A DNA stretch of 64,000 bases from Candidatus Woesearchaeota archaeon (GTDB lineage: Archaea; Nanobdellota; Nanobdellia; SCGC-AAA011-G17; GW2011-AR18), in contig JAGVZG010000003.1 of the NCBI GenBank assembly GCA_018302765.1, positions 11,081 to 75,080 of the forward strand. Reading direction: 5' to 3'. Numbering within the stretch: position 1 is the first letter of the stretch; each line of letters starts with the position of its first letter. Positions 30,001 to 33,000 of the stretch are shown piece after piece. The position numbers are program-made.

Positions 30001-33000
30001 TTCCATCTTCTAGCTTGCTCATAAGATAAATTAATCACAGGATCAGAACTTACTACAGGCATTAAATCTCTAACGCTAACACCTAAAACTTTAGCAACAG
30101 ATCTTAATTCATCTACAGTAGGAATAATATCTCTGCCATCTTCAATAGATTGCATATACTTTAAAGATAAACCAACTTTTTTAGCAAGTATGTCAAGAGG
30201 CATAGATAATTGTTCACGGAAAAACCTAATTAAAGATCCAGAAGCTCCTCCATCAGAATAATTAATTAAAAAATCAGAAGCAGAATTCAAACCTAAAACT
30301 GCTAATTCCTGCTGGGCATCACCCATTAACCTAACACCATAAGTCAAAGCAAGAATAACGCCAAGTTCTCTAGCTTCATTTTTACGAGTTGCAAAAGTAT
30401 GGGGAATATAAGGTGTAATATACATTGAATCTCCTGTATTTGTCTGTACACAAAAACGTTTTCCTCCATGTTCATAATAAAAGTTAACAGGTCCAATGAA
30501 GTATGTAAATTGATGTAAAAAATGCCCATTATTCCAGCACAGTTCTTCTGAATTAGGGTCATTATTATCAACAACTAGAAGTTCTTTTATCCACTCTGGT
30601 CTAAAAAGAGAAGTCCTGCTCATTGCAGTGTCTCTGTATTCATAATAAGGTCTGCCTCCACGATCAAGAACACGAGAAGATCTTTCGCTTTGTTCATTAG
30701 TCATTATTAACGCACCACTACGAGCATCATCTTCAAAAACATAAAAATCCCTTATATTAACTGGCCAAATCTGAGATGCTTTAACAATAAGTTCATGCGG
30801 TATTTCTTCTCTACCGTCAATATATCTCTGCAAAAGAGAAGTATCAATTCCTAATTCACATGCAGCAGTACTAAAATCACGTTTAAGGTCATTTAAAATG
30901 CCAAAAAAATTACGTCCCATTAATTTATTACTTAACATTCCCAACTCCTCCAAATTCAGCAACAGCAGCACAATAATTATCTGGAGAATGTAATTCTCTC
31001 CATCCATGATTCACTTCAACACTTTTAACATTATAACCACGATCTATTATCTCTTGAATTACATCTGTCAAAGAAGCCTTGTAAATTGATTCAGCTTCAT
31101 GAAAATATCCGTCTATATACTTTCCCAAACAATCATGATAAACTTGCATTAAAGACTCTGCACCTCTTCTAGATAAATAAGTAATGCCTATAAACTCAGC
31201 ACTCGCCTGTTCACAAGGAATTGATTTGCCTATTCTTAAAACACGATTTTCTGGTCTACGCAACTGTCTCAAACCTGAATTATTTGTAACAACCAAATCT
31301 AACTTCGATTTATAGTCTGGCTCACGCAGACGATAAGAATTATCAGTAACAATAATAATATCACTATCTTGCCTTGAAGACAAAACTTTTTTAATAATTT
31401 CATCTGTAAATAAAATATCAGAGTAAACTATTAACAATTCATTATTAAATTCCTTTTCAGCACGTGCAAGTGTAGCCATTATTCCTTGATCTTGCATACT
31501 TGCATCACAAAAACGAACACCTTGAACATAAAGTTTCTCTTCATGCTGGCCACGAATTACAACGCAATCGCTAATGCCAACATTCTTTAATGACTGAAGT
31601 TGATAATCAATAACTCTACCATCTCCAAATTGAAGAGAACTGCAAGGCTTATTAGAACACAAATCTCCTAAATTAGTATGCTTACCTGCTGCAGGAATTA
31701 CTACTTTAACGCCATTTTCATAAGCCATTCCTCTGGTCTTTAAGTCATTAAATCCTACAACTTCAAAAATAGTTTTAACAGGAGTACATAACCCATCTGC
31801 TTCTAAAGACCTTCCGTGCGCAAGAATAGATCTGGCAACGCCTTCCATACTTCTATGGGCAGCACGCAGCATATGGTTTGCATAAATTACAACATTAAAT
31901 CCTGCTTCTCTTAATTCATCTTCAGTAATAGAATTATAAGTAGTAGGAACACAAATAAGAGGTTTAAATACACCTAGCTCCCTACATAAAACATGATATT
32001 CTCTAGAAAAAGATAATACTTGGTCTGGCGTATTTTGATTAGAATGTATCATTACGCCATCAACACCTGCTTGAAGATAAATTCTAGCTCGTCCAACAGC
32101 GTCTTCTAAATCACGTCCTGCAATAAAACTTTCTATACGTGAAAAAATAAGTAAATCTTGACTTAGTCTATTATCAATACCCCTACGTAATTTAGCAGCA
32201 AAATCCTTAGGGTCTTCTAATACATGTGAAGAAGTTTTATCCAAACTATTACGTTTAGGCCAAACTTGATCCTCAACAATAACAGCAGAGACACCAAAAT
32301 TAGTAAGACGCTGAAGCAAATAATCAAAATTATTAGAGTCTCCTCCAGTGTCCCCATCAACAATCAAAGGTTTGCGGGTTACATTTGTAATTTCAGCGAC
32401 AGTTTCAATTCTGGAATCAAAACTCACTACTTGAACATCAGGCTGACCTTTTGCTGCTGAATCAGTAAAACTACTGACCCATATGCCATCAAATTCTAAT
32501 GCGCCATTAGAACCATCAATAATATCAACTGAAGCCTTTTCAGCCACTATTGCGCTTAAGCCATTATGTGCTTCTAAAACTCTTACAAATCTACCATTAT
32601 CAAACATAGCTCTAAGCAAACCTCTACGTTTCTCCGGAAGAATAACTTCTCTACTAGGCATTAGCATCACTAAGTGATAAACAAAAAAGAGAACTTATAA
32701 AAAGTTTATGGTAACTAAAACCTGTATATTAAAGAATAATGTTTAATCATATTTTCCAAGAAAAGAATTAATTCTAATTCTAAACATATCTCTCAAACCC
32801 TCAAATACAGTAGTTATTTTTACTCTTTCACTACCTACGTAATGCCACTTAACTGGAGCTCCAACAATTTTAAATCCCTTTTTCTTAGCTATGAATAAAG
32901 TTTCAATATCAAATCCAGGGTTTACAGCAGCTCTTTCAAGTTTGAAATCTTTCTTCCACCTTCGTAGCATTGAAGGAAATATGACCTTAATAGATTTTTT

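What the first reader, a model, noticed from the sequence alone, without database searches (positions are those of the whole stretch)
30928..32670. PEP mutase-cytidylyltransferase fusion with a non-canonical EDQ (not EDK) catalytic-loop motif
The PepM-family domain is N-terminal and a LicC/PntC-like nucleotidyltransferase is C-terminal. This is the reverse order of Streptomyces Fom1. PepM-PntC fusions are known to signal nucleotidyl activation of phosphonates. The hallmark PEPM loop reads EDQVWPKRNSL instead of the canonical EDKxxxxxNS. That Lys is normally used to discriminate true PEP mutases from other ICL-superfamily members. Either this is a tolerated variant or the enzyme has diverged in specificity, for example towards carboxy-PEP mutase-like chemistry.
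Basis: partly seen in the sequence, partly recalled or inferred. Interest (0 to 1): 0.6.

Follow-up and report, generated by a model that had tools for sequence, protein, structure and literature searches.

The report
PEP mutase fusion with Lys-to-Gln motif
This is an ordinary-looking first enzyme of phosphonate (C-P bond) synthesis, fused to a nucleotide-activating domain, whose one unusual motif letter (Gln for Lys) is a rare, recurrent and apparently harmless variant; it heads a methylphosphonate-synthesis operon in a tiny groundwater archaeon that public annotation misses.

Summary
It has an N-terminal PEP mutase domain, a C-terminal PF12804 nucleotidyltransferase domain, and the loop VEDQVWPKRNSL.

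The fusion itself is ordinary: about a third of all PEP mutases carry it (Rice 2019).

EDQ is rare but recurrent.
- It occurs in 3 of the 120 nearest homologues and 5 of the top 150 family representatives.
- It occurs in 13 GTDB species genomes across seven or more phyla, from roughly ten independent origins.
- Every catalytic residue of mussel PEP mutase is kept in all 16 EDQ proteins.
- 11 of the 13 genomic EDQ genes sit beside a phosphonopyruvate decarboxylase.
- Two EDQ relatives show dN/dS of 0.10.
- An EDK orthologue (P0006) holds the same slot in a syntenic operon.

Gln is the normal residue here in methylisocitrate lyases, so K-to-Q returns to the superfamily default.

The operon reads PepM-NTase, methylphosphonate synthase (Phe/Ile signature), Ppd, Fe-alcohol dehydrogenase, CDP-alcohol transferase-like protein, methyltransferase. 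It lies in a surface-glycan locus of a Candidatus Woesearchaeota MAG.

Verdict: a tolerated variant of a true PEP mutase. Carboxy-PEP-mutase-like chemistry is not supported. Modest interest: strict EDK filters and NCBI naming miss this producer.

The parts
30928..32670 (-). PepM-nucleotidyltransferase fusion gene (580 aa from GTG; public calls start at Met2 or Met4). NCBI MBS3152088.1, named 'isocitrate lyase/phosphoenolpyruvate mutase family protein'.
31744..32619 (-). PEP mutase domain (about residues 18-309).
   Evidence: PF13714 E 1.4e-46. TIGR02320 312.8 bits against a cut-off of 319.55. PDB PepM 5UNC E 3.5e-45 and mussel PepM 1M1B E 2e-36.
32242..32274 (-). Active-site gating-loop motif EDQVWPKRNSL (residues 133-143). 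Gln135 (CAA, 32266..32268) replaces the Lys of EDKX5NS. The loop Lys139, Asn141 and Ser142 are kept.
30931..31719 (-). C-terminal PF12804 (MobA-like / LicC-PntC-like) nucleotidyltransferase domain, residues 318-580.
   Evidence: PF12804 37.5 bits. AF2 model pLDDT 91. Best PDB fold hit is PntC-AEPT 6PD2, TMq 0.75; LicC 1JYK is third.
29586..30938 (-). Methylphosphonate synthase (MPnS) homologue, 450 aa, overlapping the end of the fusion gene by 11 nt. NCBI MBS3152087.1, named only 'helix-turn-helix domain-containing protein'.
   Evidence: 432 bits to N. maritimus MPnS 6B9S against 284 bits to HepD 6B9R. The His/Gln/His iron ligands and the MPnS-specific Phe and Ile are present. All 120 best homologues carry Phe at the first diagnostic site, and 118 of them Ile at the second.
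28442..29584 (-). Phosphonopyruvate decarboxylase (Ppd).
   Evidence: TIGR03297 360.2 bits, above the cut-off of 312.5. NCBI MBS3152086.1.
27300..28445 (-). Iron-containing alcohol dehydrogenase, the likely phosphonoacetaldehyde reductase that makes 2-hydroxyethylphosphonate.
   Evidence: PF00465 and PF25137. The best NCBIfam hit is the phosphonate Fe-ADH TIGR03405, at 166 bits, below its cut-off.
26533..27246 (-). CDP-alcohol phosphatidyltransferase-family membrane protein, candidate phosphonyl transferase. Its motif is DxxDGxxAR..GxxxDxxxT, so the fourth Asp is missing.
   Evidence: PF01066 32.5 bits; motif and homologues.
25827..26576 (-). Class I SAM methyltransferase, last gene of the operon; also conserved in the syntenic locus L028.
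32743..35721 (-). Upstream co-directional glycan genes: GT2 (32743..33492), Wzx-like flippase (33449..34729), GT4-family / WecA-MraY-like initiating transferase (34717..35721).
   Evidence: the same order is seen in L028.

Best explanation
The gene encodes a genuine, functional PEP mutase (PEP to phosphonopyruvate). The Lys of the EDKX5NS signature has been replaced by Gln. This third motif position is not known to me to be catalytic (own knowledge; I did not test it) and tolerates the change. Gln is also the default residue at this position in the wider isocitrate-lyase/PEP-mutase superfamily.

The enzyme is the entry step of a methylphosphonate pathway:
1. PepM makes phosphonopyruvate.
2. 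Ppd pulls the unfavourable equilibrium forward by decarboxylating it to phosphonoacetaldehyde.
3. The Fe-alcohol dehydrogenase reduces that to 2-hydroxyethylphosphonate.
4. MPnS cleaves it to methylphosphonate.

The remaining steps are inferred, not shown. The fused C-terminal PntC/LicC-like domain would then activate a pathway phosphonate with CTP, most likely methylphosphonate and possibly 2-HEP, as a CMP-conjugate. The CDP-alcohol-transferase-like membrane protein would pass the phosphonyl group to a lipid or glycan acceptor made by the surrounding surface-polysaccharide genes.

The host is a Candidatus Woesearchaeota (DPANN) archaeon found in a groundwater metagenome among other samples.
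For: Family placement:
- TIGR02320 PEP mutase scores 312.8 bits, against 148.6 for phosphonopyruvate hydrolase, 97 for PrpB and 31 for CPEP mutase.
- The PDB search gives the same ranking.

Catalytic residues:
- The equivalents of mussel PepM W44, S46, D58, D85, D87, E114, D115, K120, N122, S123, R159 and H190 are all present in the window protein.
- Nine of the twelve (W44, D58, D85, E114, D115, K120, N122, S123, R159, H190 minus none of these) are invariant in all 16 EDQ sequences examined; S46 (2 Gly) and D87 (1 Asn, 1 Ala) vary in a few of the GTDB proteins.

EDQ is the normal motif of methylisocitrate lyases (EDQVGAKRCGH in 1MUM, 1O5Q, 6T4V and 3EOO).

Recurrence and functional context of EDQ:
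- A GTDB-wide pattern scan found 13 true EDQxxPKxNS PepM homologues in Acidobacteriota, Verrucomicrobiota, Bdellovibrionales, Bacteroidota, Chlorobiaceae, Alphaproteobacteria, Actinomycetota and Planctomycetia.
- 11 of these 13 lie directly beside a Ppd homologue.
- 5 of the top 150 family representatives at 50% identity are EDQ.
- An NJ tree with Fitch parsimony gives Lys as the root state and 15 changes at this position, most of them independent K-to-Q.

Interchangeability with EDK:
- P0006, an EDK fusion 49% identical, occupies the same slot in a syntenic locus: GT4 / flippase / GT2 / PepM-NTase / MPnS / Ppd / Fe-ADH / CDP-OH transferase / methyltransferase.
- EDQ relatives P0004 and P0005 carry the same PepM-MPnS-Ppd-FeADH core.

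Selection: dN/dS between the P0004 and P0005 genes is 0.10.

The curated model accepts EDQ: P0004, P0005 and P0145 exceed the TIGR02320 cut-off.

There is no second PepM in the 64 kb window.

Pathway: Ppd is above its curated cut-off. MPnS has the diagnostic His/Gln/His plus Phe/Ile residues, the criteria cited in PMC11978286.

NTase role:
- The fold is closest to PntC.
- Fusion to Ppm is common (PMC6697681).
- An MPnS-PF12804 fusion exists elsewhere (P0370), which ties this NTase family to the MPn branch.
- Burkholderiales clusters combine Ppm-PntC with CDP-OH genes (PMC8942020).
Against: - No enzyme assay exists for any EDQ-type PepM.
- I could not inspect coordinates, so the structural role of Lys116 (mussel numbering) remains unknown here.
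- The window protein itself falls just below the TIGR02320 curated cut-off. Restoring Lys in silico adds only 2.9 bits (315.7), so the protein is generally divergent, not only at this site.
- The NTase domain lacks the usual GxGxR loop (IPAAGKHTNL), although this holds for the whole fused family.
- The CDP-OH transferase lacks the fourth Asp of its family motif.
- The activated phosphonate and the acceptor are therefore guesses.
- The full genome was not seen, so a second pepM elsewhere cannot be excluded.
Confidence: 0.78

Rival explanations
1. The K-to-Q change marks a shift in chemistry. On this view the domain is no longer a PEP mutase but a carboxy-PEP mutase-like, phosphonopyruvate hydrolase-like or lyase-type member of the ICL superfamily.
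For: - EDQ is the motif of methylisocitrate lyases and other lyase members.
- The protein misses the curated PepM cut-off by 7 bits.
- Strict motif filters would class it as non-Ppm.
Against: - The lyase signature KRCGH is absent; the PepM-specific Asn-Ser is present.
- PPH has Thr in place of that Asn.
- The CPEP mutase model scores 31 bits against 420, and PrpB 97 against 354.
- All PepM catalytic residues are kept.
- The gene is immediately followed by MPnS and Ppd, which need phosphonopyruvate.
- An EDK orthologue sits in the same syntenic slot.
- 11 of 13 EDQ genes in other phyla adjoin Ppd.
Confidence: 0.06
2. The PepM domain is catalytically dead or weak and is kept as a scaffold for the nucleotidyltransferase. 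The C-P bond would be made by another PepM elsewhere in the genome or by a host or partner organism.
For: - DPANN archaea are typically dependent on hosts.
- Only 64 kb of the genome was examined.
- No biochemical data exist for EDQ variants.
Against: - All metal-binding and substrate-binding residues are conserved.
- dN/dS is 0.10 across the whole gene in the EDQ pair P0004/P0005.
- EDQ genes in 11 of 13 unrelated genomes are paired with Ppd.
- There is no second PepM in the window.
- Phosphonopyruvate is not a known exchangeable metabolite (own knowledge).
Confidence: 0.07
3. The reaction is the same but the behaviour is altered. Gln at position 135 changes gating-loop dynamics, Mg2+ affinity or kinetics in an adaptive way, rather than being neutral.
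For: - The residue lies at the base of the mobile loop 115-133 of mussel PepM (own knowledge of the 1PYM/1M1B literature).
- The substitution has been fixed about ten times independently.
- It persists in clades, for example three Verrucomicrobiota and three Acidobacteriota species.
Against: - No consistent co-varying site was found. The two best candidate columns (mussel 97 and 130) are explained by phylogeny or by loop-length misalignment.
- EDQ lineages are small and scattered among EDK relatives.
- Other residues also occur at this position (EDR, EDT).
Confidence: 0.2
4. Sequencing or assembly error: a single A-to-C error turned AAA into CAA.
For: The Gln codon differs from a Lys codon by one base.
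Against: The gene is nucleotide-identical in four contigs from four independent samples, and the protein is carried on 24 contigs. Relatives at 54-55% identity and 13 GTDB genomes also have Gln.
Confidence: 0.01

Closest known systems
Ppm-PntC fusions (PEP mutase with a C-terminal PF12804 MobA-like nucleotidyltransferase), Rice et al. 2019, Nat Commun 10:3698
   Same: Same two Pfam domains in the same order, and the same association with Ppd and cell-surface glycan or lipid genes. The NTase model is fold-closest to the characterised PntC Tde1415 (6PD2).
   Different: - The motif is EDQX5NS, so that study's own EDKX5NS filter would have discarded it.
- The branch enzyme here is MPnS, not the AEP transaminase.
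- The fused NTase family lacks the GxGxR loop.
- To my knowledge no Ppm-fused PF12804 domain has been assayed; the characterised PntCs were not Ppm-fused.
Methylphosphonate biosynthetic cluster of Nitrosopumilus maritimus / Pelagibacter (PepM, Ppd, Pdh, MPnS; Metcalf 2012 and Born 2017, cited from own knowledge and via PMC11978286 and PMC9381506)
   Same: The same four-enzyme core. MPnS has the His/Gln/His triad plus the Phe and Ile residues. The cluster is embedded among glycosyltransferase and nucleotidyltransferase genes that suggest methylphosphonate esters.
   Different: - The host is a DPANN (Woesearchaeota) archaeon recovered from a groundwater metagenome among other samples, not a marine thaumarchaeon or SAR11.
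- MPnS is only 47-48% identical to thaumarchaeal ones.
- PepM carries EDQ.
- A CDP-alcohol-transferase-like gene and a methyltransferase complete the operon.
Fom1 of Streptomyces wedmorensis (cytidylyltransferase-PepM fusion, fosfomycin pathway)
   Same: A PepM fused to a nucleotidyltransferase that acts later in the same pathway (HEP to CMP-HEP).
   Different: Fom1's transferase is N-terminal and belongs to PF01467 (cytidylyltransferase-like), an unrelated fold family. Here the transferase is C-terminal PF12804.
2-Methylisocitrate lyase PrpB and other lyases of the ICL/PEP mutase superfamily
   Same: They share the TIM-barrel domain and the E-D-Q start of the loop, down to EDQV..KR.
   Different: The lyases continue with CGH (catalytic Cys), whereas this protein continues with NSL as PepM does. 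It scores 97 bits against the PrpB cut-off of 354.
Motif-relaxed PepM definition of Acker et al. (bioRxiv 10.1101/2020.11.04.368217)
   Same: That study already accepts as authentic any PepM lacking up to two motif residues if it lies within 5 kb of Ppd or MpnS. This gene meets that rule exactly.
   Different: In the passages I read (a term search for EDK, motif and nucleotidyl), that work does not describe the K-to-Q class, its recurrence or its distribution.

Membership tests
PEP mutase (PepM/Ppm, TIGR02320) | PF13714 PEP_mutase/ICL-type TIM-barrel domain | tested here: met
   159.5 bits against a cut-off of 31.5, residues 20-283
PEP mutase (PepM/Ppm, TIGR02320) | Score at or above the curated equivalog cut-off of TIGR02320 | tested here: not met
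   312.8 bits against 319.55, a near miss. The Q135K in-silico revertant gives 315.7. EDQ relatives P0004 (322.6), P0005 (320.8) and P0145 (327.2) pass.
PEP mutase (PepM/Ppm, TIGR02320) | Signature motif EDKX5NS | tested here: not met
   The sequence reads EDQVWPKRNS. Only the Lys differs; E, D, the loop K, N and S are present.
PEP mutase (PepM/Ppm, TIGR02320) | Catalytic, Mg2+-binding and substrate-binding residues of mussel PepM (D58, D85, D87, E114, K120, N122, S123, R159, H190; list from own knowledge of the 1PYM/1M1B literature) | tested here: met
   All are present in the window protein. All except D87 are invariant in the 16 EDQ proteins aligned with 1M1B; two of the GTDB EDQ proteins have Asn or Ala at D87.
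PEP mutase (PepM/Ppm, TIGR02320) | Closer to PepM than to PPH, MICL or CPEP mutase | tested here: met
   313 bits (PepM), 149 (PPH), 97 (PrpB) and 31 (CPEP mutase). NJ tree rooted on PPH.
PEP mutase (PepM/Ppm, TIGR02320) | Coupling to a phosphonopyruvate-consuming enzyme (Ppd) in the same cluster | tested here: met
   Ppd scores 360 bits, above the cut-off of 312.5, two genes downstream
PEP mutase (PepM/Ppm, TIGR02320) | PEP/phosphonopyruvate interconversion in vitro | not testable with these tools
   Needs purified protein
PntC/LicC-type cytidylyltransferase (PF12804) | PF12804 match above the gathering score | tested here: met
   37.5 bits against 27
PntC/LicC-type cytidylyltransferase (PF12804) | Nucleotidyltransferase fold like PntC or LicC | tested here: met
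   AF2 model pLDDT 91. 6PD2 PntC-AEPT ranks first (E 1e-15, TMq 0.75) and LicC 1JYK third. Sugar-1-P nucleotidyltransferases score almost as well, so the fold does not fix the substrate.
PntC/LicC-type cytidylyltransferase (PF12804) | Glycine-rich NTP loop GxGxR(L/M) (own knowledge) | tested here: not met
   The window has IPAAGKHTNL and the fused-family consensus is IPAAGEDPVL. The deviation belongs to the whole fused family.
PntC/LicC-type cytidylyltransferase (PF12804) | CTP-dependent cytidylylation of a phosphonate | not testable with these tools
   Needs an assay with methylphosphonate, 2-HEP and AEP
Methylphosphonate synthase (neighbour gene 29586..30938) | 2-His-1-Gln iron triad plus the Gln-packing Phe and Ile that separate MPnS from HepD | tested here: met
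   The region reads GHFLHQ...VNFYY...SMYITPYIPH, matching N. maritimus H148/Q152/F162/I184/H190. The criteria are as cited in PMC11978286.
Fom1-type CyTase-PepM fusion | N-terminal PF01467 cytidylyltransferase followed by PepM | tested here: not met
   There is no PF01467 match, and the transferase is C-terminal PF12804
Carboxy-PEP mutase (TIGR02319) | Match to the curated CPEP mutase model | tested here: not met
   31.4 bits against a cut-off of 420

The most novel reading that the evidence does not exclude
DPANN archaea (this Woesearchaeote, and other Nanoarchaeota/Woesearchaeota MAGs whose MPnS-type genes are filed as 'HTH domain-containing protein') may decorate their surface glycans or lipids with methylphosphonate. 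The route would be a CMP-phosphonate intermediate made by the PepM-fused transferase. That would make them an unrecognised terrestrial and groundwater source of the methylphosphonate that fuels aerobic methane formation. They escape current surveys because their PepM fails both the EDKX5NS filter and the curated HMM cut-off.
Probability: 0.4. Interest if true: 0.55.

Novelty: new member of a known kind. Interest (0 to 1): 0.33.

Why it matters
**Phosphonate genome mining.** The Lys of EDKX5NS is not obligatory. Inventories that apply the strict motif (Rice 2019; Li and Horsman 2022) drop true PEP mutases. The loss is a few percent of family clusters, including whole small clades in Verrucomicrobiota and Acidobacteriota. 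A rule of E-D-[KQ]-x5-N-S plus Ppd or MPnS adjacency would recover them.

**Biogeochemistry.** The window shows a complete methylphosphonate-synthesis operon in a DPANN archaeon that recurs in several metagenomes, one of them groundwater. A recent study found C-P lyase-driven aerobic methane production in groundwater but detected few MPnS genes (PMC11978286). In the public record both key genes are under-named, as 'ICL/PEP mutase family protein' and 'HTH domain-containing protein'.

None of this changes the understanding of the enzyme's mechanism.

Tried and rejected
1. **Compensatory partner for K-to-Q.** I compared 16 EDQ with 119 EDK sequences column by column. The two top columns were mussel positions 97 and 130.
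   - Position 97 is Glu only in the closely related fused EDK set; standalone EDK PepMs have Arg or Met there.
   - Position 130 reflects a one-residue difference in loop length that misaligns a conserved Gln.
   - Both were rejected as covariation.

2. **Is the Gln why the protein misses the TIGR02320 cut-off?** An in-silico Q135K gains only 2.9 bits and still falls short.

3. **Literature on the role of Lys116.** The search returned only unrelated PTP1B papers. Yu et al. 2013, the source of the motif, is not held in the library.

4. **Purifying selection from population variants of the window gene.** All contigs are nucleotide-identical, so there was no signal. I used the P0004/P0005 pair instead.

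5. **Source genome.** The window's genome is not among the GTDB species representatives scanned. Its origin came from exact protein look-ups instead.

6. **tRNA scan of the window.** No tRNA or tmRNA genes were found.

7. **Is the neighbouring B12-radical SAM enzyme Fom3-like?** The PDB sequence hits are generic (TokK, OxsB, CysS). I did not pursue it.

8. **Literature linking Woesearchaeota to phosphonate synthesis.** The eight papers holding both terms do not, by title or abstract, concern phosphonate synthesis by Woesearchaeota; I did not open them.
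Full report
**1. What is there**

The coordinates 30928..32670 delimit one ORF, but on the minus strand. It is 580 aa from a GTG start. Public gene calls use Met2 (NCBI MBS3152088.1, 579 aa) or Met4 (P0001, 577 aa).

- Pfam finds PEP_mutase PF13714 at residues 20-283 (E 1.4e-46).
- Pfam finds the MobA-like NTP_transf_3 PF12804 at residues 323-447 (37.5 bits, cut-off 27).
- The active-site loop reads VEDQVWPKRNSL. The DNA is GAG GAT CAA GTT TGG CCT AAA CGT AAT AGT TTG at 32242..32274.
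- The Gln codon CAA is a single transversion from AAA.
- The locus is nucleotide-identical in four contigs from four independent samples, one of them a groundwater metagenome. The residue is therefore real.

**2. Which enzyme family**

NCBIfam places the N-terminal domain with PEP mutase:

| Model | Score (bits) | Cut-off |
|---|---|---|
| TIGR02320 PEP mutase | 312.8 | 319.55 (narrowly missed) |
| Phosphonopyruvate hydrolase | 148.6 | 374.4 |
| PrpB | 97 | 354.4 |
| Carboxy-PEP mutase | 31.4 | 420.05 |

The PDB search ranks it the same way: Streptomyces PepM 5UNC, then PPH 2DUA, then mussel PepM 1M1B, with all lyases at or below 53 bits.

I aligned the protein to mussel PepM. Every residue I know to be catalytic or ligand-binding is present: W44, S46, D58, D85, D87, E114, K120, N122, S123, R159 and H190. 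This residue list is from my own knowledge of the 1PYM/1M1B work. Only Lys116 is replaced.

PPH also has EDK but has Thr for Asn122. The Asn-Ser pair is therefore the PepM-specific part of the motif, and it is intact here.

Methylisocitrate lyases read EDQVGAKRCGH. K-to-Q is thus a return to the superfamily's usual residue, giving a loop that starts like a lyase and ends like a mutase.

**3. How unusual EDQ is, and whether it works**

Frequency:
- Among the 120 best homologues, 117 have EDK and 3 have EDQ: the window protein, P0004 and P0005.
- In the exhaustive representative search the family is small, with 319 clusters at E ≤ 1e-30. Five of the best 150 representatives are EDQ...NS. Isolated EDR and EDT variants also occur.
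- A degenerate DNA pattern for [VI]EDQxxPKxNS[LF] across 185,579 GTDB species genomes gave 17 hits.
- Of those, 13 are true PepM homologues spread over eight bacterial lineages in seven or more phyla.

Evidence that it works:
- 11 of the 13 sit directly next to a phosphonopyruvate decarboxylase homologue.
- An NJ tree rooted on PPH, with Fitch parsimony, gives Lys as ancestral. It requires 15 changes at this position, most of them independent K-to-Q events. The nearest neighbours of most EDQ lineages are EDK proteins.
- The two EDQ genes P0004 and P0005 differ at dS 1.3 but dN/dS 0.10.
- Three EDQ proteins exceed the curated TIGR02320 cut-off.
- P0006, an EDK fusion 49% identical, occupies the same position in a syntenic locus. 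Its order is GT4-family transferase, flippase, GT2, PepM-NTase, MPnS, Ppd, Fe-ADH, CDP-alcohol transferase, methyltransferase.

EDK and EDQ versions are therefore interchangeable in one and the same operon. I found no convincing compensatory substitution.

**4. The operon**

Downstream on the same strand, the next gene overlaps the fusion gene by 11 nt. It is 432 bits to N. maritimus methylphosphonate synthase (6B9S) against 284 bits to HepD.

- It has the His/Gln/His triad and the Phe and Ile residues that distinguish MPnS from HepD. These are the criteria cited in PMC11978286.
- All of its 120 best homologues have the Phe and 118 of them the Ile; two have Val.

The following genes are:
- Ppd (TIGR03297, 360 bits, above its cut-off);
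- an Fe-alcohol dehydrogenase;
- a CDP-alcohol phosphatidyltransferase-family membrane protein;
- a SAM methyltransferase.

Upstream and around lie glycosyltransferases, flippases, an STT3/AglB-type oligosaccharyltransferase, carbamoyltransferases and sugar-nucleotide enzymes. The whole window is a surface-glycan region.

Exact protein look-ups identify the source as a Candidatus Woesearchaeota MAG (MBS3152062 to MBS3152106). There the fusion is named 'isocitrate lyase/phosphoenolpyruvate mutase family protein' and the MPnS is named 'helix-turn-helix domain-containing protein'.

**5. The transferase domain**

An AlphaFold model of residues 318-580 is confident (pLDDT 91). Its best PDB fold match is the phosphonate-specific cytidylyltransferase PntC (6PD2), with LicC third. 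Sugar-phosphate nucleotidyltransferases score only slightly lower.

The fused family as a whole lacks the GxGxR loop. Rice et al. report that 33% of Ppm enzymes carry this PF12804 fusion and about 60% carry some nucleotidyltransferase. The architecture is therefore the norm.

Fom1's N-terminal domain is the unrelated PF01467 family.

Elsewhere the same PF12804 domain is fused to MPnS itself (P0370). This links the domain to the methylphosphonate branch.

**6. Mechanism proposed**

Shown by homology and context: PEP is converted to phosphonopyruvate by the EDQ PepM. Ppd converts that to phosphonoacetaldehyde. The Fe-ADH converts that to 2-HEP. MPnS converts that to methylphosphonate.

Inferred: CTP-dependent activation of methylphosphonate (or 2-HEP) by the fused domain. 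The CDP-alcohol-transferase-like protein would then transfer the phosphonyl group to a lipid or glycan acceptor. This parallels the Ppm-PntC plus CDP-OH clusters of Burkholderiales. That transferase lacks the fourth Asp of its family motif in all the phosphonate-cluster homologues I checked, so this step is the least certain.

**7. Comparison with what is known, and novelty**

The fusion, the pathway and the acceptance of motif-deviant PepMs next to Ppd or MpnS (Acker et al.) are all known.

What I did not find described in the papers I searched:
- the specific, recurrent K-to-Q class;
- a methylphosphonate operon in Woesearchaeota.

Several other DPANN MAGs carry MPnS-type genes under HTH names. 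Strict EDKX5NS filters and the NCBI naming rule both miss this gene.

I classify it as a new member of a known kind. It has modest practical value for phosphonate mining and for locating methylphosphonate sources in groundwater.

Noticed in passing
window 29586..30938 (-): The gene after the fusion is a methylphosphonate synthase with the diagnostic His/Gln/His plus Phe/Ile residues. NCBI names it only 'helix-turn-helix domain-containing protein' (MBS3152087.1). Several other DPANN MAGs (Nanoarchaeota, and another Woesearchaeota, P0396) carry similar genes under the same uninformative name.
   Followed up: yes
window 26533..27246 (-); L005 9258-9965, L007 9261-9965, L028 14098-14802, L026 14338-15021: The CDP-alcohol phosphatidyltransferase-family protein of the operon has DxxDGxxAR..GxxxDxxxT. 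The fourth Asp of the family signature is replaced (Thr or Gln) in all five phosphonate-cluster homologues checked, which suggests a distinct subfamily.
   Followed up: partly
window 30931..31719 (-), residues 323-335: The PepM-fused PF12804 domain family lacks the usual GxGxR nucleotide loop. The window has IPAAGKHTNL and the family consensus is IPAAGEDPVL, yet the fold model is confident and PntC-like.
   Followed up: partly
P0370 (689 aa) and P0377 (759 aa), homologues: MPnS occurs fused to a PF12804 nucleotidyltransferase in one protein (P0370) and to a TauD-type dioxygenase (PF02668) in another (P0377). These are Rosetta-stone hints for steps after, or alongside, methylphosphonate formation.
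   Followed up: no
window 22143..23579 (-); also L005 1646-3100 and 19119-20588, L007 1205-2659, L026 2911-4335: B12-binding radical SAM enzymes recur within a few kb of the phosphonate operon in the window and in related loci. PDB sequence hits are generic (TokK, OxsB, CysS), so a Fom3-like C-methylation of a CMP-phosphonate is possible but untested.
   Followed up: partly
P0288, P0271, P0266, P0279: Other residues occur at the Lys position in PepM-like representatives: EDR..NS, EDT..NS, and EDN or EDS combined with ..CS instead of ..NS. The latter may be a different activity.
   Followed up: no
window 1..64000: The whole window is a surface-glycan region. It includes an STT3/AglB-type oligosaccharyltransferase (50505..53144), two NodU/CmcH-type carbamoyltransferases (7748..9496, 13983..15716), three SGNH/AlgX-like proteins (4037..7770), several GT1/GT2/GT4 genes and two more radical SAM proteins (18662..20443, 58759..60270). 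No tRNA genes were found.
   Followed up: partly
window 20928..42661 compared with L001-L004: The locus is 99.9-100% nucleotide-identical in contigs from four independent samples, one of them a groundwater metagenome. This points to a widespread, near-clonal population of this archaeon.
   Followed up: partly
L026 12443-14371: The closest relative of the window PepM (P0002, 57% identity, EDK) sits in an AEP-type cluster with an Aminotran_5-NTP_transferase fusion like Tde1415 and no MPnS. The MPnS and AEP branches therefore swap within this PepM subclade.
   Followed up: partly
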